A program made the position numbers and the translations under genes. The notes beneath the pieces are model-generated. The model was not told where the DNA came from and did no database searches. It was given only the letters and a program-made list of their open reading frames with translations. A stretch of 62,785 nucleotides of DNA, filler included, from Dugesia japonica (Eukaryota), in NCBI GenBank assembly GCA_001938525.1. It is 7 parts of 7 records of this genome, joined end to end, with 100 filler letters (N's around TTAATTAATTAA, not from the genome) between each part and the next. Parts side by side here need not be neighbours in the genome. Positions count along the whole stretch, not along the records: positions 45,320 to 54,386 come from MQRL01633247.1; 6 more parts are not named here. One strand, written 5' to 3'. Shown one piece after another: positions 19,720 to 58,060 of the stretch (position 1 is its first letter; each line of letters starts with the position of its first letter).

Positions 19720-21587
19720 GCCGACATCAATAAAGTATATGACGATAGTACTGTTCCAGTGAGCGATTGTTTTTCGAAGATGGAATAAAACAGTTAAATG
19801 AGAAGATAACTACAAGAAGCGAGCTCGGATCTAGTTGGATACTGAGTCGCATATTGGAAATAAATTTTAAAATCTCAAAGGTATTAGAGATTAGGCGATT
19901 ATCTGTACATGGCTACATTCCAACACAAAAAAAACTTGGAAAAGAAAAAAGCAAATGTCAATGTATAAAAAAATGACAATTTATATTTAATATACAGTAT
20001 CCTAGCAATTCTTAAACAAGAGAAAGTTAATAAAACTCATAGTTATCGTGCGGCACCATATAAAAAATACATGTTTGATCTTGTATTTGATGGAGGGGAA
20101 ATGCCAATGAAGCTCGCAAACATATCGAAATTTGAGAATCAAAATCCGAGCTAATCAATTAATGTTTTCTCATGGAATCCTCAATCAGTGGAGGACGATG
20201 ATGATGTTATCATGAAACCTCTGAATTTAGATATTATACATCGGTCTAAATGTGATGGAGAAAAAATCAATTTATTGTTTTTGGAAGATGCCAACAAATT
20301 TCATTACACTGATGTAATGAATTTGAATAGATTGATGAACAGAGATATTAAAAAAGGTGGTGTTCGAATTCAATCAATCTGGTCCAAAGATTATCTCAAC
20401 GGATTCTGGGATAATATGACTTACAAGACTCATGAGCCAATTTGAGAGAAGATACAGAAGGGCACCGCATTATACAACATGACGACAGAAAGAATTTTGG
20501 AGTTTCAAGATTACTCCAAAACTATAACTCCACCCTTTGTTATATATGCTGATATATTGATTGAATCAGTAATACCAAGCGATGAAAAGCATTTCTAGAA
20601 ACATTTACCTGTTTTATCTGGAATGTTGTTGGTAAATAATTTTACCAACAAAGTCAAATACAGTCAGTATATTGGAAATGAATGCGTATATAAATTCCTA
20701 AAGGCAGTGGAGGAAATTGGTAATAACATAGTATGCCCATATTATGTAAAAGAAGGAACAAAGAAACGGATTATAAATCCGGACCAAGAAATAGAATTTA
20801 AAAATAGTACAATATGTCATTTGTGTAAAAACCATTTAAGTAATCTAGTTCGGGATCATGACCATTTTAAAAGCAAATATATAGAAGCTGTCGGTAATAA
20901 ATGCAATTTAAGCAGAAGAATCAACTACCATTTACCAGTAATCTTCCATAATTTGAGAGGATTTAATCTTCACCACATATTAAAGTTTAGGTTAAATAAA
21001 TTTCAGAATTGGACCATATCGTGTATACCAACTACATCAGAAATATTCCTATGCCTCATTGAACATATGAAAGAAATTACCATCAGATTTATTGACTCGT
21101 ACCAATTTATAAACTCTTCATTGGATGTAGCAATCAAATCCTTAAAAGAGACACCTTTGACAACAAATAAATTTAGAGATAACAGAATAACAATGTCAAA
21201 GGATATATTTTCTTATAATTATGCAACCAGTTTGGAAGTTCTGGTTGAAACAACAACAATGCCACCAAGATGGGAGGGAGTTAGTGAGCAAGATTATCAA
21301 AAAGCATTATAAATGTGGACTATAACAGGATGCAACAATCTCTTGGGTATATGCTAGTATATTTGAACATAAAATTGGAAAAACTAACCCGATTAATGGT
21401 GAAAGACCAGCTATTGGAAACATCCAATTACTGCTCAAACCATACCCTTTACAGCAACAATTTAAATTCAGTAATTGGAAAGTTTAAGGATGAAAGTAAA
21501 GGGAAGAAATATCAAGAATGGATATTTTTGAGACCAAATAGTTATAGCTTACTTAGTGAGAAAGAATCAATGAAGCTAAGGGCATAA
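19720..21587 (+). pseudogene. Polinton/Maverick (adintovirus) protein-primed DNA polymerase B with endonuclease VII-like motif
   Basis: GSSWILSRIL...GYIP; INLLFLED...HY; PFVIYAD; CHLC...VRDHDH...CNL...LPVIFHNLRGF; IRFIDSYQF; TSNY..NHTLYS....VIGKFKDE...FLRPNSYS. Frameshifted, with an internal deletion. Confidence 0.9.
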
Positions 21588-23949
21588 CATTAAAAGGTAC
21601 TGACATTTGTCATCAGCACTAGTAATTCTAATTCGAGTAACGAGAGTAATAATCGCATAAAGAAATTGGTAAGAATACATTTAAATGATAATAATACTGT
21701 GGGTACTCCCATCAACGCCAATACTTTTTTAATCTTGACTGTTTTGATGTTAATAATATGAATGGTCCTAATTTTCATGGTGAATTTATTGGTGGCAGTT
21801 TGGGTAATAACAGAAATTTTCTAATAACAATATTAATAAATGAGAATAATAAAAGAAAATTTGTTAAAACAACAAAAACATTCTCATGAATAATGAATAT
21901 ATTTAACGTAATCTTGCTATTATTATTTATTATTATTAATATTTAGTCATTACACTGATAAAGATGTTACGGCTTAGTTGGATTGCCATGACATTATTCC
22001 TAGTTATTTGTTAGTAGCGCTCTGACTAACGAGTGTGATGTTATTATTAGTCACTTCCACTGCCAGTCAAACATGCCAACTCTAATGGATATTTCGCACA
22101 ACAGATATGCGTGTGAAATAATAAGTACTTGAAATCGAACCAAAATAGTGATATCTTTAACCACAGTTATGCTGAAATCAGCACCATGATTCCGTGTGCG
22201 GGTTAACGATGTATAGATATTTCATCATATGTAATTGTTTTATTTTCTCTTTTAACTATTCAGTGCATAACCTTCCTCTAATTTAGCAGTGGCTCAATTT
22301 AATGTACACCATTGCTGACTGACTCATAAGGATTATAAAGAATCGTGTATGTTGAAAAACATGAGTTAGTGTGCAATAAGTTGACTAGTAATGTGGGTAG
22401 CATTTAATGGTAGATATACCGATATTGTGAATTTCATAGTTCACGTTAATCGCGGTAACACACATGTCACCAGACTTATCAATCAACATACTGTCTCTGA
22501 AAAAAAACTTTGTGAACATCGATTACTGGAGCGACAAATCTAATTGAAAGAAATGCAGCAACAATACGCAGCAAGTAGACACTTTCTTTAAATTTATTGT
22601 AACTGAACTTTCACGCATCACTCGATCACAAATAGAAATATATCTCATGATATCCGTTCATGTCGCCTAATTATTTAATCAATAGACAATTAATAACATC
22701 AATTCTCATAAAGAAGTATCTATAAAATAATACTGAAAATAGAATAAATATTTATTACATTTAAATCATTATAATATATTGACATAAATATCCATTAATA
22801 AACAACACTACTTACTAGTAGTTGATAAGATTTTTGCAACGAGTATGAATACGAAACGAATCGGTTCCAGGTAATTTCGATTAATATTACTGCGACTCAA
22901 TTAGATTTTTTCCGTTTTGTGGGCGATAGTTTTATTCTACAACTTTTGTAAAGTAAAATTGAAAATCAATTTATAGAGATTTCTGGCTTACACTTGAATT
23001 CGTGATAGTAAAGTTGCTGAGAGTTTCTTCAATAGTTTTAAAGATTACGTAGTTGTAATAGTTACAATTCTCACAAAATTCTTTATATCCGTCTAAATTT
23101 TGGGGCGTTTAAATACCATTTTCTGATGCAACTTTGAATCATTGTCATTGGTTGCTATTTCTAATTCAAATTTCTTACTTTCCATTGGTTCTGGTGTTGA
23201 TTTTTCAGATTTTTCATGGATTTCTTGAAATTTTATTGGCCTCTATTTTTAAATCAACATGTGATGCTCGGGTCTTTGTTTCATTTTCTTTTCTTAACAC
23301 GTTATTGACCCAATCTTTGACCCCTTGCAGAACCTTTCCTGATGGTGATACGATTTTCAGGTTGCGAAATTTTATTGCACAGGTACTTTTCCTTTTCAGT
23401 TTTTCTTATTAACAGCTTCTGCAATTTTCCTGAGCAAAGTTATTCGTACAAAACGGATTTTTGACTAACTTTACTTCATATTTTTTCAAAATTAATTAAT
23501 ATTTTTCTGGTAATTAATTATTTTCCCATAATAATTTTCTTATCTTTTATTATTAATTCAATAATTTCTTTTAATTCTTAACATTGATGCGTTCGCCCAA
23601 GTTCTTCATATCAATCTTCACTTTTATTTTATTCTTTTTTAATGGTTATTTTTATTATATTCTATCCATGATCTTAATTGCTTTTCCTTTCGAATTCCTT
23701 TATTGATAATTATAATAGCCCTGCCGTTCTTCTTTACTGATTTGAGCCTTTGGCCCCATTTTCTTCTTTAACTGGGTNNNNNNNNNNNNNNNNNNNNNNN
23801 NNNNNNNNNNNNNNNNNNNNNNNNNNNNNNNNNNNNNNNNNNNNNNNNNNNNNNNNNNNNNNNNNNNNNNNNNNNNNNNNNNNNNNNNNNNNNNNNNNNN
23901 NNNNNNNNNNNNNNNNNNNNNNNNNNNNNNNNNNNNNNNNNNNNNNNNN

Positions 23950-24099: not shown

Positions 24100-26780
24100 A
24101 TAAGTATTTAAAACGAAATTTATTGTGTTTTATTGTTAAGTATTTTAATTTTCAAAAGTATTATTATAATAATATGTCAATAGATTATACACATATTACT
24201 TAGATAAACAATAGGTTTATTAAATATGTTACTCCTTTTATTTAAATTAGCATTAATTTCAATAGGATATATACTCGTTTTATACAAAATTTAATAAGTC
24301 TACCTAAATGTATGTTCTAATATTTTACGTATGCAATACTTTCATACAAATAGAACCTGATTTTATATACAATTAACCATCATAAATTTTATTTATAAAA
24401 TGAAATTGCAAATTTTCAAATCTTCAAAAACTTTTTTATGAAAGCTGAATTTTTAAACAAAATTTTTAAATATTTTAAAAAAATCTTGAAATCTTTTATA
24501 ACATTTTCTTCTTCAAACTTTTAATTGCAATTTTTAATCCTTACATTCCCTCGATTAAAAAATTTTTTTAAGCTTTTCAACGTTTCTTTCTAGCTCTTTT
24601 CTATTTGAATTTTGCAGACGATATCTTCTCTCATGTACCGTCTCCGTGATCTTGTATGTGACCAGTGTATCTTTCATTGTCTTTTGTTCTAGTTTCTAGT
24701 TTTATCAATACTTCGTCTCCTACTTAGAATTGTCTTTTTGTAGGTATTTCTTCATCGACTCTTTGTTATGTCTTGGGCTGTCGAACAATTGTTCTATGTA
24801 AATTCGTCTACCGAATATTAATTCTGCTGGTGATATCCCCAATGTCTTTTGCCTTGTTGCATACATCATGTATTTGATACAGTCTCTGATTGTGTGGAAT
24901 TGTCTCTCTATAATCACGTTTGTATTGTGATGGTATGGACCTGAAAAATGCACTTCTATATTCATCGATTCCATCCTATTCTTGACGTTTTTCAATTCAA
25001 ATATTTTACCACTGTCCACGTGAATTTCTCTCAGTGCTCCAAATCTCATGATACATTTTTCCATTATCACTTTTTTAATCGTCTCATCATCTTGTTTGTT
25101 GATTGCCATTAGGCTTACATATCAACTATATTGGTTTTTATCCCACATATATGTTTGCCTGTTCACAGTCTCCCGAAAAAGCTCACATATGTCCATATAA
25201 ATATTTGCAAATAGACAATTTGCGCTTAATTTTACTGTTGTCTCTTTTGATGCCACAGTATTAACTTTGTTCTTTGCACACGCTTCACATTGTCTTATCA
25301 CTTCTGTGACTGTCTTCTTCAGTTCCTCCATGTCATATTTGCTGATTATGAAGCTGATCATTTACTCTGTTCATGCATGTATTAACAATGTATGTATCTA
25401 TTTTATCATTGATATTCTTATCTCTTTTGGAATCCAAGTTTTCCCATCACTTGTTTTCACTATAATACTTTCGAATTTATACTTTGAATCCTTTTCTTCT
25501 TGAATATCTTGTTTGATTAGTTTGATTTCCTCCATTCTTTCTTGTCAGTTAGATATTTTTATCTTTATCATCTGATTTATCTGTCTTGTTTTCGTCCTCT
25601 CCATCTTTTGATCTTCATGTTGCATTTGACATTGAGTACACGTTTCGTATTTCATTCTTGAGATCATATCTGCGTTTGCGTGTTTCTCGCCTTGTCTATA
25701 TATTAGTTCCATGTCTAAGCTGCTAAATTAATTCATTCATGTCTGGAAATGAAATGTTATCGGTTTGTTTGTCTTTTTCATGTATACGATGGCTTTGTGA
25801 TCTATCCGTGTTATGAATTTTTGTTTCCATAAAAATAAGGTTTAAAGTGGTTGCAAAGTAGTAGATTGCTAGTAATTCCTTCCATGTGATACAGTAACCC
25901 TTCTCAAGTGATGTCATTGCATGTGAGCCTTAAGCAATAAGTATTTCTATGCCATCGTTATCGTTTTGTAATAGGATATTGCGTCGAAGTTGGCATCAGT
26001 ATCTAAAATAAATGTCTTCTTCATATCATGAAATCCTAGAATAGGTGCTATTATCAGTGCTTGTTTCATTTCTGCAAAAGCTTTTTCACATCCATCTGGC
26101 CATATTAGCTTGGTGCTGTGGTTTCGACATAATGATTCTAGGGCTGTTGATTTCTTTGAATAATTCTTGATGAATTTCCAGTAGTAATTGCATATTCCTA
26201 GGAAACTTCTTGGCAGCTTCGATTTACATGGGATCTGTACAAACTCCTTCTTTATCTATTGTCAGACCAAGAAATTTCACTTCTTTGAGTAATAAATGAC
26301 ATTTTTCTGAATTCGCTCACAGCCTTATTTTTTGGATCCACTCTAATACCTTACACAAAGTTATATAATGATATTTTAGTCATTCTGAGAATATCATTAT
26401 GTCATCCATATACTCCATTGCTATATCTGGACCGTGCAATGCATTTGTCATTAGTTTTGGAATGTTTCTGTGGCTTCTGCTATGCTGGATGGCATTCATG
26501 TGAAGCAATATTGATCATTTTTGTCGAAAAGGCTGTTTTCTCTTGTGAATATTTTTCTTATGGTACCTGGTAATACACGTTTTTTAAGTCTATAGTACTG
26601 AAATAATATGCCACATACAAATTGTCTAACATTTCTTCCACGTTTGTCATCGGGAAGGCCTGTCGTTCCTTAAATGCCTTTAGTTTCCTAAAGTCCAAGC
26701 AAAGTTTCACATCCTTTCTTTTTTTCTTCCAGACGCATATCAGTGGTGTGTTCCACTGCGAATTCCATTTTCTTATAATA
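24100..26780 (-). mobile_element. Gypsy LTR retrotransposon pol (RT, RNase H, integrase) with PPT and 3' LTR, decayed
   Basis: WNTPLICVWKK...LCLDFRKL, YMDDIMIF, FILDTDA, CEACAKNK, FGALREIHVDSGK...PYHHNTNVIIER. PPT-like GAGGGAA followed by TGTAAGG at 24545. Left boundary is approximate. Confidence 0.9.
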
Positions 26781-27856: not shown

Positions 27857-27918
27857 GCGTTGATTTTTATTCAATTTTGTTGTTAGTTAATTTTCTTTTT
27901 AATTAATTATTTTGAAAA

Positions 27919-28467
27919 ATGTATTATTACAGATGCGGCAGAGCTTATCACTTTCTAAGTGGTTCCATCTTCATTTTATGCGGCATTATAATTTTCATAT
28001 GTGAAGTAGTTTACACAGCATTAGGAATGTCAACTTTCGTTGTACCTTTTATCGCTGGAATCTTATCAATTATTGGTGGAATAGTATTGATCATTCTAGT
28101 TTCGAAAAAAGAGAATCATAAAATTGCATCACTATTATTGGATTTTTTTATATTTATGCTAATTATTATTTCAATCTCACTTAGATGCTCTTATTCCGTA
28201 ATCTGTTCGATATCAGGAGGGTTTCAATGGTTGAATTTCTTGTTTTTAATAAGTCATATAATATATGTAGGAATCGAGATCAGAAAAACTGTTCAACATC
28301 AACAAAGTAATATTCAAGTGCAAAATACTGTTATATATAGCATTCGACAACAAGTTATTCCCCAACAATTATCTACAAATAATTATTCAGCTCGACCTCC
28401 ACCTTATTCAATAGGTGCTATTCATCCCGCAAATTCTTCGTCATATCATCAACAATCTAGATATTAA
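27919..28467 (+). CDS. Intronless 182-aa four-transmembrane protein, MS4A/CD20-like, with a Q/S-rich tail containing PPPY
   Basis: Intact ORF with AAAAATG context and four hydrophobic segments. PFIAGILSIIGG resembles the CD20-family PFWGGxxFIISG. AATAAA at 28583. Confidence 0.7.
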   Translation: MYYYRCGRAYHFLSGSIFILCGIIIFICEVVYTALGMSTFVVPFIAGILSIIGGIVLIILVSKKENHKIASLLLDFFIFMLIIISISLRCSYSVICSISGGFQWLNFLFLISHIIYVGIEIRKTVQHQQSNIQVQNTVIYSIRQQVIPQQLSTNNYSARPPPYSIGAIHPANSSSYHQQSRY

Positions 28468-42758: not shown

Positions 42759-42835
42759 TGAGTGTTAGAACCGATATTTTCAATCCTGTTGGTGTTACTG
42801 TGTATAAACAAACCAAGAAATTATTATATTTTAAA

Positions 42836-43267
42836 ATGGCGAAATTTCAAAAATTTGTAGTTGATCAGATAAAAAGTATTCCTAAAATGAAAATAGTTAA
42901 ATAAACAAAAAAGCGTATTGTAAAAAAGATAAAGTGTGGAAAGAGGCAACAAAATAAACAGTTGAACATTTTTAAGAAACTAGCGAAACTGTATGGTAAG
43001 AAAATGACGAGCGTAAACGGACAATTTCCAACATTTGTTACGGATGATTTAATTGAAATTATTGTAAATATTGTTCGCGGAAATGTAAATGTGAATAATG
43101 CTAAAAAGGAAGTATTGAAAAAACATAAAAGAACGCTACTAACGCTTGTAAATACAAAAAATAAGAAATTGATGAGGCGAGTAATACGAGATAATCAAGA
43201 AGGTGGCTTTATAGCAGCATTACTACCAATTGCATTAGCAGCACTAGGATTAATTCATTTCAAATAA
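42836..43267 (+). pseudogene. Polinton/adintovirus small basic protein ending QxGGF plus hydrophobic tail (one premature stop near 42902)
   Basis: NIVRGNV...KKEVLKKHKRTL...QEGGFIAALLPIALAALG matches the conserved Polinton ORF pattern N.LxGNV....K..L..YK..LR...QxGGFL..LL. Confidence 0.75.
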
Positions 43268-43359
43268 ACAATTGATTTCGCCACAGTACTATTATAAACT
43301 CATTCCAAATAAAAAATGGGCGGTTTACATTCAATACCTAATTTTGATTTCAAATTTTC

Positions 43360-43562
43360 ATAAAATTGATGTAATCGGCAAACTGAAGACGATATGGACG
43401 GACGCAGAAAATCCCGTAGATTTTCGTGGCGTAAAAAAATTGATGAAAGCAGCACAAAAAACAAAAACAAAGACAAAAAAGTGGTTATCGGGTCAACTGG
43501 CTTACAGTTTGAACAAACCAATGTTGAAAAGATTTCCAACAAGAGCATATAAAACGTTTGGT
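43360..43562 (+). pseudogene. Polinton integrase N-terminus
   Basis: LKTIWTDAENPVDFRGVKKL...KKWLSGQLAYSLNKPMLKRFPTR resembles LxxIYYDPxNPxSFxGVxKL...WLxxQxAYTLHKPxRxxFxR. Confidence 0.8.
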
Positions 43563-45319: not shown

Positions 45320-45528
45320 CGTTATCTCCTGCTGTAGTTCTAGTTCTTTTATCCTTCGCACGAATTTTAGCCTTCTAGTACCATTTTGGTTTTTGTCATT
45401 CTTCTCTCTAACTAGATTATGGCCTTCATGGGTCTGATTTCTTCATTTTCTTTTCTTATGTGGATTTTTCAAATTTCGTGCTTACTTACGCCATTCTATT
45501 TGCCTTAATCCGGTGTTTTACCCCAACA
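45320..45528 (-). mobile_element. LTR terminus inserted into a Gypsy RNase H coding region
   Basis: The RNase H frame ...CSHFKHFL is interrupted by TGTTGGGGTAAAACACCGG. Same family as 1-72. Confidence 0.6.
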
Positions 45529-46603
45529 TAAAAAGTGTTTAAAGTGGCTGCAGAAGCAGTAGGTTGCTAGTAATTCATTCTGGGTAAAACAGTAGCCTTT
45601 ATTATGTGATGACATTGCATGTGAGCCGTAAGCAATAACTCTTTCTCTTCCATCATAATTTTGTGATAAGACCGCTTTTATTGCGTCGAAGCTGGCTTCA
45701 GTATCTAAAGTAAATGTTTTCTTGATATCCAGGAATTCTAGAATAGGTGCTTTTATTAGTGCTTGTTTCATTTCTGCGTAAGCTTTCTCACATTCATCTG
45801 ACCATATTAGCTTCGTACTGTTGCTTCCACATAATTCTTCAAGGGCTCTTGATTTCTTTGAATGATTCTTAATGAATCTCCTGTAATAATTGCATATTCC
45901 GAGGAAGCTTCTCAGGCTCTTTACTCATTTTGGTTTCTCAAAATTATTGATTGCTTCGATTTTAATTGGATCTGTTCGAATTTCTTTATCTATTATGTGA
46001 CCAAAAAATTTCACTTCTTTGCGTAATAAGTGATCTATTTCTGAATTCACTTGAAGCCCTGTCTTTGGATCCATTCTAATACCTGACCTAGAATTTTATA
46101 ATGCTCTTTTTATATTATGCTTTTTTAAATAAATGTGTTCATTCATTCTTTTGTATTTTAAAGCTTCCTCCAAGTCTTGCATAGTCTTTTTGTGGAGCGC
46201 TTTCCTCAGTCGGTCCTCAAAATCTACTAATTCAACTTGGCATTCACATGGTTCTCTTAATTCTCGATCAATTAAGCCAACCACCAAGAGGTTTTTATCC
46301 TTTTTCTTACACCAATTCATTCGAAGTATGTGTTGCAAACATTGATAAACTGTTCAATATTATCACCATGCCGGTAAATTCCAGGGTGTAGAACTTCTTG
46401 AATGTAGTCCATTGAAGAGTTGGTCGCCATGTTATTTACTGATAAACTTTCTGAAAAGTCAACAAAATTTTATTATTGAAATTCCAAATCTTCAAATCTT
46501 AAAAATCTAATTTTTAAAGGCTGAATATTTAAACAAAGTTGTTTAAATATTTTTAAAAAATTCTTGAAATCATTTTAAGCTTTTGCCATTTCAATTTTTA
46601 ACA
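45529..46603 (-). mobile_element. Internally deleted Gypsy element: 174-bp LTR (46430-46603), PBS, gag start, RT/RNase H
   Basis: TGT...ACA LTR followed by PBS-like TGGCGACCA (46421-46429). Gag ATG at 46412 (MDYIQEVLHPGIY). LRSFLGICNYYRRFI and FTLDTEASFDAI...VIAYGSH. Confidence 0.85.
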
Positions 46604-47249
46604 ACTGAACCAGACATCTCTAACTCTACAACATATACCTTTGTGGACACTAAATCCAAGATCAGAAGTAAGTTTTTTAGAAAGACTAAATTCAAATAAA
46701 TCAATTTATGCAAATAATTTAAATGGAATTTGTTCTGTAATTGATATGGGTGATGAATCAACTTATTCATTCAAATTAGAAAATTTAGCTTATAGACCTA
46801 GATACATTTTAATTGGTTTTAAAGATACAGATATTTCTTTTCAAAAGAATAATAACTTAGTTATAGTTAAAGACGGAATTAATAGTTAAAAATCCATACA
46901 AATACAGTTAAACAATACATTTGATCGAGTTAACAGAATGGAGTTTAATGTATCAAATAGCGAAATAATATTTTCTTTTGGTTCATTTGTAAATTGTTGT
47001 AAAGATTTTTAATTCAAGCCACAACGTAGTTTATAAGATTTTAAATATATATATCCAATTTTTTGTATTGATACGTCAGTACAAGACAATAAATTAGCGA
47101 TAAATGATGTTGATGTAAATTTACATTGTACAAAAGATACATGTTTTAAAGCTAAATTATACTGTTTAATTCTTGAAGNAAAGAAAATTTAAATGAGGTT
47201 AAGTGGAGACAAGATATGTATAATAGAAAATGTTAGAGGAGACGCATAA
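46604..47249 (+). pseudogene. Polinton major capsid protein (double jelly-roll) C-terminal part
   Basis: FLERLNSNKSI...RPRYILIGF...IQIQLNN...YPIFCIDTSVQ, typical of the Polinton MCP C-terminus (KPRYxIxGFQ, PxFxIDxSxQ). Confidence 0.65.
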
Positions 47250-47367
47250 ATTTTTATAAATAAATGAATAAATATAATTCATGATTTAAACGAAATAAAA
47301 AGTCCTTCATTTAAAGAAAATATTTAAAGAGCTTTAGTTAAATTAACTATGGAAGGTAAAATTTTAG

Positions 47368-48050
47368 TTGGATGAGGATTATATAGACCTGCTAAAAAAT
47401 AAAGCCAATCAAAAGATTATTGAACAGGCTTCGCAAGAAAGCATAGAAAAAGATAAAGATAATAATACTAAAATTATTGAAACTCAAGAAAATCAAATAA
47501 ATTATGCAGCTGAATTACATCACGAATATAGAAAGACTAAAATATTTTTAAAAGTACAAATACATAATAAATATCACACATGGGAATGTGATATTGCGAA
47601 TATGGTTAAAAATCTACTGATCAAGAAAAGTTTCGTTATATTTTAGTTTGTATTAGTTTATACACAAAAGATATGATTTTGTATTCCAATGATAAATAAA
47701 AGTCAAGAATCTTTAAGAGAAACTTTTGATAATATATTTGAAGATAAAATAGAATATCTCATTATATTTGGTTCGATAAAAAATCAGCAATAAAATCAAA
47801 ATATTTTGAAAAATTTCTAAATTAAAATAATATTAAATGAATGCAAATCAGTTTTTGCTGAAAGATTAATATAAACCTTGAAAAATAAAATGTTTGAATT
47901 TTTTACATCACTTGGAAAACAGTGTTGAAATGAAACATTATTAGATAAAATAGTTATTGAACATAATAATAAATCAATTCATTCAAAAATTAAGCTATCA
48001 CCGAAGGAAGCTTCAGAAAATCCTGAGAAAATAAAAATAGATAGATTCCA
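47368..48050 (+). pseudogene. Polinton retroviral-like integrase
   Basis: AAELHHEYRK...HTWECDIANM...RYILVCI...IWFDK...FAERLI.TLKNKMF...HNNKSIHSKIKLSPKEAS. Frameshifted. Confidence 0.85.
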
Positions 48051-48170
48051 TATCTCATAATAACAAGGAAAATATTAAACTCACATAACACAGTATCAAG
48101 TGTAGTAAATAATTTATTTAAATCGTCGATATACAACAAAAGAACTTAAAAAAATGAAATCAATCCTCGT

Positions 48171-48338
48171 TTAGATCCACTTTCCCTTCGGGTGGAAACA
48201 TTTCCGCGAGACAACAAAGGTCTCGTCGGGGTGTTCAATTTTTCCTTTCGTCAATAGATGGGCGACGAGTTGTTTTAAGCGAGTAGATTGCCGTCGTCGT
48301 CTTATCCATAGGAGGATATGATTCAACTCGGCTGACAT
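48171..48338 (-). CDS. Orphan ORF A (55 aa), paralog of 51218-51364
   Basis: MSAELNHILLWIRRRRQSTRLKQLVAHLLTKGKIEHPDETFVVSRKCF. About 29/48 identities by eye to the inverted copy, with many synonymous differences. Confidence 0.45.
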   Translation of the reverse strand: MSAELNHILLWIRRRRQSTRLKQLVAHLLTKGKIEHPDETFVVSRKCFHPKGKWI

Positions 48339-51217
48339 GACTAAATAGAAAAAATGGAGCTTTAAATCATAACCCGGGGTTCATTTTCTAAGATAGATAT
48401 ATAACGTTTTACTAGAAATCGCTGATAGGATGACTCGCTCCAACAATCGTGATATTAATTCATGGAATAAGTTCAATTTAGTCCCCGANNNNNNNNNNNN
48501 NNNNNNNNNNNNNNNNNNNNNNNNNNNNNNNNNNNNNNGACGAGTTGTTTTAAGCGAGTAGATTGCCGTCGTCGTCTTATCCATAGGAGGATATGATTCA
48601 ACTCGGCTGACATGACTAAATAGAAAAAATGGAGCTTTAAATCATAACCCGGGGTTCATTTTCTAAGATAGATATATAACGTTTTACTNGAAATCGCTGA
48701 TAGGATGACTCGCTCCAACAATCGTGATATTAATTCATGGAATAAGTTCAATTTAGTCCCCGAGGTCAAATCAAGATGGTAGCAATATTTCTAACATTCG
48801 TCATGTTGATAGTAAAACAACGCGCTATTGATTTTTCTAATAACGTTAATAGTAATTGTAGGGGTATTGCGAGTCATATTTCTGTATCTGGTAATGATAA
48901 CAATAGAAATTGATGATCGATTTATTTCGGGATTTACTGATATTTAAGATGTTACTAATCCTCGTTACCGATTGTTTTCCCGTAACCCCAAGATGAGTAC
49001 TCCTAAGAATAGCATCAGAAATTTTAATAACACCAGTAGAGATAATATTAAAATTACTCAAAATAATAATCGTTTTACTTAATAATAAAATTAAATACTC
49101 TCGGGTTTTACGGGGTTTGATTTTCTGCACATTGTGGTTACTTAGGAACCTGCCTGTATGTATCTCACTATGGAGATTAAATTATGCGTGTGCCAGATCA
49201 TCCAGTTGTAGGCGTGTTTAGTTGGAAATTTAAGCATAAAATCAATATGATGATTCAACTATTAGTGACAATAATTATTGCGCCCTCATGCTAACTACAA
49301 TTCCTAGTTCTAGCGTGATATTTTTATTTTCTGGAGAAATTATGATAACTAATTCTACACTGGGTAGGATTATCAAATCTTTATTAGTGGATTTTAACCA
49401 ACAACAGCAGGAGTCTCTTTTTCACGGACATTCCCGGATTTACTTACAAGCTGAATTATTCTAGGTAATTTATCATTTTCTGATGAAATAAATATTTAGA
49501 ATTACGGTGGTTTTCTTTTTAATTCTAATAATTGTTTTGATTGGTATATTTTCTAACGGTATGGTCACAAGCTAAGGAAAACAATCCGATCTAACTTTCG
49601 TTTTAAATATGAATCTTCGTAATATTACTCAAAGGGAATTGGGCCTGATCACACTATTTTCCAGTATATAACCTATTTCATACAATGAGGGAAATTAAAG
49701 GTTTTCTGCAACGGGTTTCTTTCCTTCGAATAGCTATTACCGAGTTGGCGATTCCGGATCTGAGACTGAGATTTTGAATTCTATTATATTTTGTTCCTTG
49801 AACGAAAGAAGTTTACTCACAATGTGAATAGAAATTTAATTTACTATAATTCTTTGGAATTCTAATTGAGTTTTACGGTTCACACAGAGATTTTTACAGA
49901 ATTTTCTTCTTATGAATATGCAACAGTCAGGGCTTAGTTTGAAGTTTTAAAATTTGTGTTGTTTTTTCTGCTAAAACTAAGGGTCCTTTTATAGGGTTTT
50001 CCGATGCAACTCGGTATCATTCTTATTGGGGGGTATTTTTGTATCAAAATACTGGTATCTCATTGGCGCTAGTGCCACAATTCGAGAATTTTCACAGAGT
50101 TTTAGAGCTCTGATTGGTAAGTATTTTTAGAGGGCCATGTGATGGTTCTTTCTTTGTGTTATTTTTATTTTTAGGCCTCCTATTCATTCAATCTTGTGGA
50201 CCCTACAGCAGCCTTCTGGATGAGCGTAAGTTTTTCCTTCTTAGCAATTTTAATGCATCTTGTTGTTCTCTTTTCATATTTTCTTCTCCGGGTTCTTTCN
50301 NNNNNNNNNNNNNNNNNNNNNNNNNNNNNNNNNNNNNNNNNNNNNNNNNCATCTTGTTGTTCTCTTTTCATATTTTCTTCTCCGGGTTCTTTCCGATTTC
50401 CTTGAGCGAAGTTATTCGGGTAAGACGGATTTTGTCTTAATTTTAATTAATTTTTTTGTTGAATTAATTATTATTTTTTTTTATATTCATTCCTTCTTTT
50501 GTTACCCATTTTCTTTAATAATTTTATTAATTTTGCGATTATTATAATTATTCGTATTTGATTTGGTCTTCTGAATTTCCATTTAATATCATTGTCTGGA
50601 TTTTTCCTCCGGTAATCTCTATTTTAATATTGGGTAATTCCTAGCCCCCCTTTGACTTTGCTTCTCATTCCTCCGGGTGTTTCGCCCCAACATTATTATT
50701 AGAGTCATTGTTATTGTTGTTGCTATTATCATTATTAGCAACATTAAAATTAATATTACTCACATTACTATAGTGATTAATATCATTATTAATAAAATAA
50801 TTACCCATCATTATCACCCTAACATTTTTGGGACTACTTTCCTCCTTAGATTAGTGAAAGGTATTATTGTCGCCTTTATTAGCATAATTTTGTATAACAT
50901 TATTATTAGCATCAGTCTGAAGATTCATTCTCACCAGTTTAGTAAAAANNNNNNNNNNNNNNNNNNNNNNNNNNNNNNATTATCATTATTATAATCAAAT
51001 ATATTATTACTATTAAAACCATTGATAGTAGCGTAATAACTATTCTTATTTTTCTTAATAAGGGTATTATGATCATAATGGATATTATTCGGTTGATTTA
51101 ATCTTTTTATTGTGACGAGAATCATATGAATAATAACAGATAATAGCGGCTATTCTTTGTAGGGAACTAAAGTGTGGANTAATAAGTGCGATTAATGNCT
51201 TAATTGTTTTTTAATTC

Positions 51218-51364
51218 ATGCCCGCGGAGTTGCGTCGTACCCTTCGATGGATAAAACAACAACGCCAAACTGCCCGAGTAAGGTAACTACTAGCTCATCT
51301 ATTAACTAAAGGGAGGATCGAGCATCCAGATGAGACAGACCTTTGTTGTTTTACCGAGATGTTC
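51218..51364 (+). pseudogene. Orphan ORF B (one stop, 4-bp insertion), paralog of 48171-48338
   Basis: MPAELRRTLRWIKQQRQTARVR*LLAHLLTKGRIEHPDETFVVLPRC; runs into an N gap. Confidence 0.5.
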
Positions 51365-52049
51365 NNNNNNNNNNNNNNNNNNNNNNNNNNNNNNNNNNNN
51401 NNNNNNNNNNNNNNNNNNNNNNNNNNNNNNNNNNNNNNNNNNNNNNNNACGTTTTTCTTTTTATATTAGAATAACTATTTATATAAATTTTTCATTATAT
51501 CATAATGCTGATTTCTATGAATCTCATGCCAATTATTCTCACTTTTTACTTAGAAATAAAATCTATATGGGAGCAAATAATAGATAGGAGGACTCGCAGA
51601 GTGATTTTCCGTCGCCACTATAACCTACATAATAGAGATGCCGGTATTTTAGTGTATAGGTCTAATTTACCCCCCGTGGCTCGCATTCAGAATTTCGGCG
51701 AGTGGGTACATTTCCAACAATGGAACGAACACTTACCACGGTATTTAATTACCAACCGCTCGCTCCTCCCCCGGTGGTACAAGCTTTCATCTCCAATTTA
51801 ATCTGGGGTGTGAGAGAGCCGTCCGGTGTTAGCGAGATCGAGAACACCGCTCCTAATGTTGAAAATACTATGAACCCACAATAAAATATTTTTCTTGTTG
51901 ATTGTCTATTTAAAACAATAAATAAGTGACTCTTTTATGTTAATTTGCTTCATTTCAATGTGTATTTTTCAATGGAAACTTCTATTCCACATTAATATGA
52001 GGATGTATTTTTTGAGCATAGTGTATTCTATTGATTATAATTATAAACG

Positions 52050-52937
52050 CCTAGTGCATTCCTCTTTGAATCGACCTGCAGCTCTCACGAAAAAATTGAG
52101 AGACATCAGTAAGGACATGGAGCTCACTTGGGACCTATATCGACTGGCAAAACGTCGATGGGAGGCCGAGATGGCCACTGCCAACAGTAAGGTGATTCGT
52201 TATAAGAAAAAGTGTGTCACTTTCAAAAAGGAAGCCGAGGCCTCTCACTTGCAGGAGCAAACCTGGAAGAAACAGGTTGAGTCTTTTGCGTAAGTTATTC
52301 GGTCCAGCCATGACCAAGAGAAAAAACTGGTTAATGATATTTTACTTCTCCAGGAAAGAATACCTCTCGAACCGTTGATAATCCAAACATCAAACACATC
52401 GAAACTAACTCACAGTTTTTTTTTTGTAAATAAATTTGCCGTTCAGCCTTTCTTACGCATCATCTTTCCCAATAGCATTCGCAGGTGCCACCGCATAATG
52501 CGCCGTCTGCTGGTTGAGCGCCATCTAAAGCGGAAAACCGATAAAGCTCTGCTTAGACATCTGAACCAACGAGATCGTATAATTAAGAAGCTTGACCACA
52601 TTGTGAAAAAAAATGACCTAGCGGCGCAGACAAAGGCCTTAGAGGAGGAAAGTAAACTATTATTACAAAGGAAAATCGATTTCNNNNNNNNNNNNNNNNN
52701 NNNNNNNNNNNNNNNNNNNNNNNNNNNNNNNNNCAGACAAAGGCCTTAGAGGAGGAAAGTAAACTATTATTACAAAGGAAAATCGATTTCCTCAAACAAT
52801 ATATATCCGACCGGTCATGTAAATTAAGAAACCCTACCTAGGTTCAATGGGACGACAACAACGATGTCGCCACCTTCAATTTTTCGATAACTGATCCGGA
52901 CCAGTGGTTAGACCGTGGCGTACTAGCCGAGTTATAA
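52050..52937 (+). pseudogene. Unidentified coiled-coil reading frame with few stops
   Basis: ORFs 51937-52293 and 52375-52749 are in the same frame, separated by one TAA. K/E/R/L-rich helical sequence, GC-richer than the flanks. Confidence 0.5.
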
Positions 52938-54386
52938 ATATTATACTAATAAATATTTTCGAGTATCTTTAGTTTGAATTCTATGTGTAACTTAAGGGAA
53001 AATAGTGAACCTTGATAAAAAAAACCTATGGGCGCTAACCTCCCATTAAGAGAGAGATCAACCACCATATGCTGAATACCTGACCAAGGGGCGTCAGGTT
53101 AAATTCTTGAAAGGGTTCCCCTTAGGGTTGTTTTTTCCCAGCCACTATTTTCGTCATTCGACTCAGGTGGGACCCCAACAATAATATCATTAAAAATAAT
53201 AATGAAAAATCTTTCTGAACAAAACTTTCAATTCTCGTGGCAAAGAAAACTTCTTTTACAGTGACATTCAAATTGATTAAATTGAAGAAAACAGTTTGTT
53301 TATTGGTAAGAAACTAAACTAAATTCACGGATTATCCAAAAGTAATGTATTGAAATTTTATATCAACGCTTCATTCAATAATAATAATAACAATAAAACT
53401 TTCTGAATATAGAATCATAAATAATAAATTTTTCGATTGTTTTCAGTCTTCTATTTTTATTAAATTTCTTCAAACATATAGATACTGATATGATCNNNNC
53501 TCGTAATAATAAGTGTGCTGAAGTATTGTGTTTTTGTAATTCTGTGGCTGTGTTTTATATTAACTCGATGATGATTAAGACGATCTCATTCGCTAACCAA
53601 TCATCTCGCATTATATCTTCAACCGCATTTTACTGCTTGCAACGATACCGTATATACTTACAGGTTTGTTTCCTTTCTATATCCGCTTCACTATATGGTA
53701 GTTGAGTGATAGCAAATTTGATTTTCCAAATGTGTTATCAATTTGGTAAGTTCTTTGTTTAAAATTGAACACTTTTTAACTATTCCTCTTTCTGTATCGT
53801 TTTTTATCTCCCATTGAGGGTTATTTTTGGTAACCAACTGACATTTTTTCTTTGTATTTACTCTTTTGTGGCCTCTTATAGGTCTTTTTACGAATTAAAA
53901 TTTTAAATAAAATAAATCAATTTATACATATCTGTAAACTTAATGATCAGATAATAATCAGTGACTTTCCTTTTAAAATGTACGATAAAAAACTTTATTA
54001 ATGTATTATAAATTTTATTTATATCAGTGAAAAACAGTTTTTTAAATAAATTTTATATATTTAAATTATTATTATGATTGCCATATACGCATAATCACAT
54101 CTGATTGGTTAATTTAAAAAACCCTTGATNNNNNNNNNNNNNNNNNNNNNNNNNNNNNNNNNNNNNNNNNNNNNNNNTGAATTTTCAGAGATAAAAAATA
54201 ATTTATTATTTTCTTATTTATTTATTATTAAGCTGAAATTAAGGTTAAAGAACAGAGTGTCGTGAATAATTTTAATGTAGGTCAAAGACATAAATTAAAT
54301 GAACAAGAAAATATTGATGAATTCTTTCAAATGGTCACATTAATTTTCAATATTTTTCTTCTGGACTTTAGAAAGATAATTTGATA

Positions 54387-57110: not shown

Positions 57111-57519
57111 CAACATAAAATCATATCAAAAAGCAATGGAAATGTGGGAAATAAATGGATGTAAAAATTTATTTGATTAGATGCTAGTTTATTAAAAGTT
57201 GAACGTCCGTATTTTGGTTGATATTTTTAAGTAATTTTGAGCCAAACCGATAGCTTACAATAACTTGGAACAACTTTCTTAAAGAAACAATTTGTTTGGA
57301 CTGACCAAGTTATATTTGTTAAACAGTGTTGGATCTATCAAAGCTAAGAATGGAACAGAGGCAGTAAATTGAACTTGAAAACTATCATAAAAAAGAGTAC
57401 TGTACAATAAACTTAGTAGCTGGAGATATAAATAGCTTCTTCATGAAAGTAAAAAAGCATTAGGAAAGAGAACCTAATAATAATGTTAATAAGTAGAAAT
57501 AAGAAGTCTAGAGGATGAA

Positions 57520-58060
57520 GTAGTGGTTGCCATGCCAATCATGATGCAATTATTACACAAGTATTATTTAATCGTTATATAAGTGGTACGTAATCATCCC
57601 GTAACTATTATAGAACTATTATGAAACTGTTACATGATAATTATGTAACGATTCCATTATTATTACTATGCTTAATGGTTACAATGATAACGAATAAACA
57701 ATAGTTGCCATAGTAGCGTTTATCATGGAGCGGTTTCCATGGAAACAATGACGTACTTCTTACATTAGAGAGCATTGCGTAACTCCGTCACGATGTTAAC
57801 CACAATAATTGTTTCCATGGCTACCATAACGTAACTATTACGTACGCATTAAATAATCATAATGTAATTATCACACGATAATTTCGTAAATATTACGTAA
57901 CTGCTATGTAACTATGGTGTAAATACTACTATATGATTGCCATGACAGCTAGTACGTACCAGTTTACATTGTAATGGTTGTCATGGAAACCATGAGGTAA
58001 CATCATTATTAGAGACTATTGTGTAACTCATATACGACGGTTTGTATGCTGATCAAATTT
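57520..58060. repeat. Degenerate repeat packed with RFX X-box-like and TTAYGTAA motifs
   Basis: GTTTCCATGGAAAC at 57733, GTTTCCATGGCTAC at 57811, GTTGTCATGGAAAC at 57977 and others. About 244-bp internal periodicity. Confidence 0.65.

What the first reader, a model, noticed from the sequence alone, without database searches (positions are those of the whole stretch)
48100..53180. Unclassified GC-richer multi-ORF element with back-to-back paralogous orphan genes
Seen: a roughly 5-kb segment with no recognisable transposase, RT or capsid motif. It carries two copies of a short ORF pointing away from each other (48338 minus, 51218 plus). They share about 60% amino-acid identity (core AHLLTKG[KR]IEHPDETFVV) with largely synonymous or conservative differences, which indicates past purifying selection. 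Behind each copy, on the opposite strand, lies a decayed Asn-rich frame (about 48830-49083 plus; about 50600-51150 minus). Further open frames follow (51505-51884, 52050-52937) and the segment ends in an LTR-like CCCCAACA at 53180. Inference: accessory genes of an undescribed large mobile element or endogenous virus, such as a giant planarian Gypsy or cargo of the adjacent Polinton.
Basis: partly seen in the sequence, partly recalled or inferred. Interest (0 to 1): 0.72.

Follow-up and report, generated by a model that had tools for sequence, protein, structure and literature searches.

The report
Gene-carrying giant LTR-like insertion
This 5-kb block is a decayed, multicopy piece of mobile DNA that likely jumped into a dead virus-like transposon; it carries two related tiny genes kept under selection in the past plus other unknown small genes around a conserved predicted promoter, and it is most likely the lone end-repeat of a giant retrotransposon whose small genes may have regulated it.

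Summary
The block is real: 35% GC against 23-25% in its flanks, and tens of diverged copies in sequencing data. The two back-to-back ORFs are true paralogs (30 of 46 aligned residues identical, pN/pS 0.22). The long right-hand ORF is a real, decayed coiled-coil gene. The Asn-rich frames are not shown to be coding. Three short duplications are assembly overlaps, so the true length is near 4.6 kb. New here: the block interrupts a Polinton-type integrase gene (left side strong, right side weak), ends in a perfect LTR integrase-recognition motif at 53180, and has a non-coding triple-CCAAT plus TATA core. That core recurs, 61% identical and gap-free over 303 nt, at 23077-23379. No homologue was found for any ORF. 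Best reading: a solo LTR of a giant planarian-type gypsy element (Burro-like) carrying accessory genes on both strands (55%). It is not ordinary Polinton cargo and not a single-copy host locus. LTR identity is unproven: the left end and the target duplication are ambiguous, and no copy attached to gag-pol could be examined.

The parts
48114..53180 (-). Whole insertion, likely solo LTR; left end uncertain (48101 or 48114); about 4.6 kb without assembly overlaps
   Evidence: GC contrast, and flanks match consecutive parts of one integrase with 5062-5080 nt of implied extra DNA; multicopy
48160..48338 (-). Micro-gene A, about 60 codons, basic N-half; frame shifted near 48223 in this copy; acceptor-like tract before the ATG; AATAAA at 48118
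48539..48763 (.). Second copy of 48264-48488 beside a 50-N gap: assembly overlap, not a third gene
   Evidence: 225 nt, 99.6% identical
48705..49083 (+). Opposite-strand region behind A; ATG 92 nt from A's ATG; weakly homologous to the region behind B; coding not shown
   Evidence: 1 of 1000 shuffles as similar; Asn content at background
49240..49464 (+). 74-codon open frame followed by AATAAA; possible small gene, no homologue
   Evidence: (5 of 300 shuffles, region chosen because open)
49955..50257 (-). Non-coding promoter-like core: CCAAT boxes at 50113-17, 50062-66, 50025-29 and TATAAAA at 49993-87, all on the minus strand
   Evidence: highest depth inside the block
50600..51125 (-). AAT-rich, Asn-reading tract behind B; ATG 93 nt from B's ATG; coding not shown
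51218..51364 (+). Micro-gene B, paralog of A; stop at codon 23; end hidden in gap 51365-51448
51487..51884 (+). ORF3 region: two overlapping open frames, probably one frameshifted small gene; AATAAA overlaps the last stop
52051..52937 (+). ORF4: decayed, basic, predicted long-helix/coiled-coil protein of about 260 codons; AATAAA at 52948
53174..53180 (-). Perfect LTR integrase-recognition end (7 of 7 to YNYAACA / TGTTRNR)
   Evidence: consensus from PMC3601003
47268..48113 (+). Left flank: decayed Polinton-type integrase (residues 58-320 of a 389-aa relative; weak trace to about 330)
   Evidence: P0011 tblastn E 7e-49
53186..53284 (+). Right flank: weak match to the tail (residues 336-370) of the same integrase
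   Evidence: 16 of 1000 shuffles; anchored test 2 of 500; 15 of 1397 windows
22831..23650 (-). Second, diverged copy of the central core on another scaffold piece of the window
   Evidence: 303 nt gap-free at 61%, same CCAAT offsets

Best explanation
The block is a decayed member of a dispersed repeat family, likely a solo long terminal repeat (LTR) of a giant Ty3/gypsy retrotransposon that inserted into a dead Polinton integrase gene and then lost its interior by LTR-LTR recombination. Read on the minus strand, it starts with an integrase-recognition end at 53180. About 3 kb of predicted U3 follow, then a triple-CCAAT plus TATA promoter predicted to fire leftwards near 49960, then a predicted R-U5 part with a polyadenylation signal near the far end. 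The repeat itself carries small genes: micro-gene A in sense, and its paralog B, ORF3 and a coiled-coil ORF4 in antisense. A, ORF3 and ORF4 each have a polyadenylation signal behind the stop; B's end is in a gap. SHOWN: multicopy status, paralogy, past purifying selection, the coding character of ORF4, the conserved non-coding core and the att-like right end. INFERRED: LTR identity, U3/R/U5 layout, solo-LTR origin, and the role of the proteins. The most likely role is as the element's own regulators (small basic helical proteins acting on its transcription, RNA or host silencing), by analogy with accessory genes of complex retroviruses. In this copy A, B and ORF4 are broken.
For: Insertion: a 389-aa integrase relative matches the left flank up to about 48080-48113 and resumes weakly at 53192-53284, implying 5062-5080 nt of extra DNA against a block of 5067-5080 nt. 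Right end 7 of 7 to the LTR att consensus, chance about 0.03 within 25 nt. TATA and three CCAAT on one strand; only 1 of 1720 130-nt windows has three CCAAT. The core is conserved gap-free with no codon phase (40/36/43, p 0.73) in a second copy. Multicopy: in one DNA run 2199 contigs were laid on 47180-51178, 167 of them at 99% or more; summed depth is about 6-44 times single-copy over 47984-49859 and 336-1000 times over the core (a rough measure only). Selection on A/B. Plus-strand excess of long frames: 4 of 95 aa or more against a mean of 0.5, 0 of 200 shuffles (one of the four lies in the AAT tract). No terminal inverted repeat. Burro elements exceed 30 kb with up to 25 kb internal, leaving several kb for LTRs, and carry accessory ORFs (PMC6431247).
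Against: The left end is ambiguous. TG at 48101 (6 of 7 to consensus) has no target duplication. The 5-bp duplication ATAAT needs a start at 48114 that reads TT, and it has about a 0.2 chance probability. No primer-binding site, polypurine tract, second LTR or gag-pol is adjacent, and none could be sought elsewhere (no genome). The right-flank integrase match is weak (p about 0.004-0.016) and two frames compete. AATAAA only 5-17 nt from the end leaves almost no U5. The depth jump between core and arms shows the block is not one uniform family. In two RNA runs (about 6% and 25% read) no read lay on 48118-49859; all 29 and 83 reads laid were partial matches, so this copy and close relatives gave no sign of expression there. 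No homologue or fold supports any function. Planarian origin rests on earlier AI notes and composition; I did not verify it.
Confidence: 0.55

Rival explanations
1. Composite: two fragments of diverged subfamilies (or an old internal inverted duplication) joined back to back, so A and B are the same gene from two sister elements, not a designed pair in one LTR.
For: A/B silent sites are near saturation (dS about 1.9). Homology extends to the opposite-strand regions behind each ATG at equal spacing, 92 and 93 nt. Depth differs more than 20-fold between core and arms. Two N gaps without overlap (50949-50978, 51365-51448) lie in the block.
Against: Diverged contigs span internal points such as 49533 (records 6 and 11). 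The two internal att-plus-duplication pairs found are at chance level. Both arms have similar depth.
Confidence: 0.17
2. A self-standing, non-autonomous gene-bearing element (mini-virus or satellite-like DNA element) that is integrated in trans by a retroviral-type integrase and is not an LTR of anything larger.
For: Gene-dense layout on both strands with AATAAA within 50 nt of 5 of 5 stops examined (chance about 0.15 each; the earlier ORF3 stop at 51801 was not among them and is 79 nt from one). No retroelement interior beside it. One att-like end.
Against: No terminal repeats and no replication or capsid gene. No relative in viral or metagenome contigs.
Confidence: 0.15
3. Cargo genes of the neighbouring Polinton.
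For: Flanked on both sides by Polinton-type sequence. Compact genes with their own poly(A) signals.
Against: It appears to interrupt the integrase coding region. GC is 35% against 23-25%. Depth is about 6-44 times single-copy in the left arm against 278-1090 in the integrase.
Confidence: 0.08
4. A host multigene cluster or segmental duplication.
For: Purifying selection; promoter and poly(A) motifs are host-like.
Against: Tens of copies, most at 85-95% identity; A, B and ORF4 broken; insertion in a transposon gene; no RNA reads on A in two runs.
Confidence: 0.05

Closest known systems
Burro / GYPSM1 giant Ty3/gypsy LTR retrotransposons of planarians (PMC6431247, section 7 read in full; Grohme et al. 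2018 not held, not read)
   Same: Multi-kb LTRs implied by over 30 kb total and up to 25 kb internal; thousands of copies; accessory ORFs; AT-rich animal host.
   Different: The section read describes accessory domains in the internal region and polyprotein, not small genes inside the LTR. No sequence comparison with Burro LTRs was possible.
Metaviridae/retroviral LTR architecture (PMC3601003, passages read)
   Same: TGTTRNR/YNYAACA end (one end perfect), TATA box and AATAAA on one strand.
   Different: Second end imperfect; length about 4.6 kb; several ORFs on both strands; AATAAA very close to the end.
Plant Retand elements with antisense ORFs (PMC11963269, abstract read) and rotifer LTR elements with extra ORFs (PMC5408684, passages read)
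   Same: Extra ORFs of unknown, possibly regulatory function in gypsy elements, including antisense and coiled-coil ones.
   Different: Those ORFs lie between pol and the 3' LTR; here they appear to lie within the repeat and include an ancient divergent paralog pair.
LTR-encoded or antisense accessory genes of complex retroviruses (MMTV sag, HIV nef, HTLV-1 HBZ; recalled, no call)
   Same: Small genes in or driven from the LTR.
   Different: No sequence or fold similarity shown; usually one gene, not an array.
Polinton/Maverick elements (PMC4028283, passages read)
   Same: Form the flanks; compact genes.
   Different: The block has no Polinton core gene or terminal inverted repeat and appears to break the integrase.

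Membership tests
Solo LTR of a Ty3/gypsy (Metaviridae) element | Short inverted repeat ends TG...CA (TGTTRNR...YNYAACA) at both ends | tested here: inconclusive
   Right end 7 of 7; left end 6 of 7 at 48101 or starts TT at 48114
Solo LTR of a Ty3/gypsy (Metaviridae) element | 4-6-bp target-site duplication | tested here: inconclusive
   ATAAT at 48109-13 and 53181-85, chance about 0.2, and not compatible with the TG start
Solo LTR of a Ty3/gypsy (Metaviridae) element | TATA box upstream of AATAAA on one strand | tested here: met
   Minus strand TATAAAA at 49993 with three CCAAT; AATAAA at 49385, 49328, 48926, 48118; motif matches only, activity untested
Solo LTR of a Ty3/gypsy (Metaviridae) element | Dispersed multicopy sequence inserted in unrelated DNA | tested here: met
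   (47180-51178 only); insertion in an integrase gene, weak on the right side
Solo LTR of a Ty3/gypsy (Metaviridae) element | Other copies occur in pairs around gag-pol with PBS and PPT | not testable with these tools
   No genome held
Burro/GYPSM1 | Sequence identity with a Burro LTR | not testable with these tools
   No repeat library on hand; source paper not held
Polinton cargo | Continuous part of the Polinton with like copy number and composition, core genes intact around it | tested here: not met
   Integrase appears split; GC and depth differ
TIR DNA transposon / Polinton / Ginger as the block itself | Terminal inverted repeats | tested here: not met
   Best end-to-end inverted match is 10 nt
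Single-copy host genes | Single copy, intact | tested here: not met
Winged-helix regulator (FeoC-like) for the micro-proteins | wHTH profile or fold match | tested here: inconclusive
   Pfam FeoC E 0.018 and 0.0056, below the cut-off; three-helix model with pTM 0.38 and no significant fold match

The most novel reading that the evidence does not exclude
A lineage of giant animal gypsy elements has turned its LTR into a two-strand multi-gene cassette: an ancient inverted pair of micro-genes and further orphan genes around a fixed-spacing CCAAT/TATA core, each with its own poly(A) signal. Every solo LTR would then be a self-contained package of regulatory genes scattered through the host genome, able to act without the retrotransposon.
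Probability: 0.35. Interest if true: 0.72.

Novelty: new variant of a known kind. Interest (0 to 1): 0.47.

Why it matters
If the LTR reading holds, it shows retrovirus-like complexity (several accessory genes inside the terminal repeat, on both strands) in an invertebrate gypsy lineage. It would supply a new orphan micro-protein family and a conserved promoter module that can be tested by RNAi and transcript mapping. It would also mean that solo LTRs in this genome are mobile gene packages.

Tried and rejected
Homologue searches, all blank or chance. Word search with ORF A: no candidate. ORF4: 0 of 183 candidates. HMMER against 1.84 billion representatives with ORF A: 1 hit, P0007, a tandem-repeat protein matched by summed 20-residue stretches, rejected. 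Atlas: no usable hit for A; IQ/lever-arm helices under 0.9 with low recognition for the ORF4 half, rejected as generic helix. Viral contigs: 7 of 34 candidates with 18-21-residue matches for A, taken as chance; 0 of 8 for ORF4; 0 of 13 for the integrase piece; 0 for a core motif. Metagenome contigs: 0 of 458 for B. The triple-CCAAT pattern gave 121+ stretches; none of the 127 loci then held matched the element by blastn or tblastx, best core identity 36%. Pfam, NCBIfam, PHROGs, Rfam and tRNA scans gave nothing above cut-off inside the block. Fold searches of the micro-protein model: no significant match. The ORF4 model (pTM 0.27) was not fold-searched. No RNA holder was listed by the run index, which is no evidence. 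Read depth, variants and expression were obtained only for 47180-51178; B, ORF3, ORF4 and both junctions remain untested by reads. Rejected: an internal element 49533-53180 with an ATAAT duplication (chance-level, and spanned by diverged contigs); coding in the core (no codon phase); similarity of the 92-nt spacers between the back-to-back ATGs (284 of 1000 shuffles); openness of 49500-49770 and of 51652-51881 in one frame. The sigma-70 scan does not apply to an animal. Literature searches for a description of genes inside planarian LTRs found none. Grohme et al. 2018 and its supplements were not held and may annotate such ORFs. Four short motifs were absent from the 7 supplement files of PMC13524379, whose table gives no LTR coordinates for its six Smed elements.
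Full report
SETTING. The window is several scaffold pieces joined by N-flanked linkers; the finding lies on the piece 45320-54386. The window is 27% GC and full of decayed gypsy and Polinton pieces. No whole genome is held. Earlier notes of this scan call the genome planarian; I did not verify this.

THE BLOCK. 48114-53180 is 35.2% GC against 23.0% and 25.3% in its flanks. Three near-identical duplications (225, 44 and 57 nt) each sit on both sides of a 50-N gap and are read as assembly overlaps, so the length is about 4591 nt and there is no third micro-gene. Contigs of one DNA run laid on 47180-51178 numbered 2199: 167 at 99% or more, 473 at 95-99, 874 at 90-95 and 685 under 90. Against a single-copy depth near 9, summed depth is about 6-44-fold over 47984-49859, 336-1000-fold over 49860-50261, about 20-fold in two AAT-poor bins of the right arm, and 278-1090-fold over the neighbouring integrase. 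The tool warns that summed depth is not a copy number; it still shows a dispersed, diverged repeat. No read data were obtained right of 51178.

THE PAIRED ORFS. A (ATG 48338, minus) and B (ATG 51218, plus) are 70% alike over 148 nt. Over the first 38 codons 23 of 37 comparable residues are identical with pN/pS 0.26; the other five frames give 0.36 (the antisense frame in codon register) to 2.68. The copies differ by 4 nt near 48223/51337. Both segments together give pN/pS 0.22, Fisher p 7e-9. Silent sites are near saturation (dS about 1.9), so the duplication is old. B carries a stop at codon 23 and ends in a gap. The corrected frame here fits it with two substitutions, and that note prompted the frame test.

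OTHER FRAMES. ORF4 (52051-52937) has 1 stop in its first 211 codons (0 of 300 shuffles), is basic (46 K+R, 24 D+E) and is predicted as long helices (pTM 0.27). ORF3 is two overlapping frames. A 74-codon frame lies at 49240-49464. Long frames are in excess on the plus strand (4 of 95 aa or more against 0.5; 0 of 200) but not on the minus strand. AATAAA follows within 50 nt of 5 of 5 stops examined. Behind each micro-gene an opposite-strand ATG lies 92 or 93 nt away, and the following 145 nt are weakly alike (1 of 1000 shuffles), but the spacers are not (284 of 1000). The B-side tract is Asn-rich beyond all 458 other windows yet shows no excess of the silent AAC codon; the A side is background. 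These two are therefore not shown to be genes.

THE CORE. One strong TATA match occurs in the block, on the minus strand at 49993, with CCAAT at 50029, 50066 and 50117. A second copy of this region lies at 22831-23650 on another scaffold piece. 303 nt align without a gap at 61%, mismatches are even across codon positions (40/36/43), and all three CCAAT boxes sit at identical offsets. This is what a spacing-constrained promoter would give; activity is untested. In one oligo-dT run, partial reads from relatives over 49860-50127 lie mostly with the first mate on plus, which in a stranded library would mean minus-strand RNA; strandedness is not on record, so this is weak. Neither RNA run gave reads on 48118-49859.

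THE ENDS. A 389-aa protein with an rve core and a phospholipase-A2-like N-terminus (P0011), an architecture I recall as Polinton-type, matches 47268-48042 (E 7e-49) and continues to about 48080, with a trace to 48113. Its tail, residues 336-370, matches 53192-53284 weakly (16 of 1000 shuffles; anchored 2 of 500; 15 of 1397 windows; two frames compete). The anchors imply 5062-5080 nt of extra DNA, which fits the block. The right end matches the LTR integrase consensus of PMC3601003 at 7 of 7. The left end is either TG at 48101 with no duplication, or 48114 with a 5-bp ATAAT duplication (chance about 0.2) and a TT start. There is no terminal inverted repeat.

HOMOLOGUES AND FOLDS. None for any ORF. 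The micro-protein model has three helices (pLDDT 71, pTM 0.38) and no significant fold match. Weak FeoC hits are below cut-off.

INTERPRETATION. An integrase-type end, a probable insertion into unrelated DNA, a CCAAT/TATA core with a downstream AATAAA, no inverted repeats and a length of several kb fit a solo LTR of a giant gypsy element best (0.55). Burro elements are the obvious candidates in a planarian (PMC6431247, section 7 read), but membership could not be tested. The small genes were under selection while the family was active, and most likely served the element as regulators; this is analogy only. Rivals are a composite of two sister fragments (0.17), a self-standing gene-bearing element (0.15), Polinton cargo (0.08) and host genes (0.05).

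LITERATURE SEEN. PMC6431247: passages and section 7. PMC3601003, PMC5408684, PMC11410931, PMC4028283, PMC10175614, PMC13309565: passages. PMC11963269: abstract and outline. PMC13524379: passages and supplement rows. Grohme et al. 2018: not held; it or its supplements may already annotate ORFs in Burro LTRs. Eight of my nine paper searches bore on this and listed no description of a gene array inside a planarian LTR. Retroviral parallels (sag, nef, HBZ) are recalled.

VERDICT. A real, decayed, gene-bearing repeat; probably a new variant of a known kind. Interest 0.47; 0.72 if the multi-gene LTR cassette is confirmed (probability 0.35).

Noticed in passing
window 22831-23650: Second, 61%-identical copy of the element's promoter-like core on another scaffold piece, with a TATTTAAA variant where the element has TATAAAA.
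   Followed up: yes
   Followed up: partly
window 46450-47270: Decayed frame just upstream of the integrase that looks like a Polinton capsid gene (from memory; no Pfam or NCBIfam support).
   Followed up: partly
window 42830-43560: More Polinton-like pieces: a basic ORF ending in a GG..AALLP motif and an integrase N-terminus (recalled resemblance; the two frames scanned gave nothing above cut-off).
   Followed up: no
window 20599-21312: Type B DNA polymerase fragment (Pfam DNA_pol_B_2, E 3e-5), likely another Polinton remnant.
   Followed up: no
window 27916-28467: Intact-looking 183-aa frame with a hydrophobic N-half and a PPPY-bearing tail; no Pfam hit; may be a host membrane-protein gene.
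   Followed up: no
window 24384-26377 and 45527-46584: Two decayed copies of an ordinary gypsy element (RT/RNase H, integrase) sharing a 120-nt piece that lies on opposite sides of pol, perhaps its LTR.
   Followed up: no
window 50062-50071 and 49939-49944: E2F-like TTGGCGC overlapping the middle CCAAT box and a CHR-like TTTGAA beyond the TATA box (motifs recalled); neither is kept in the second core copy.
   Followed up: no
window 57500-58000: Patch of short repeats built on GTTTCCATGG/GTTGCCATG units with many palindromes.
   Followed up: no
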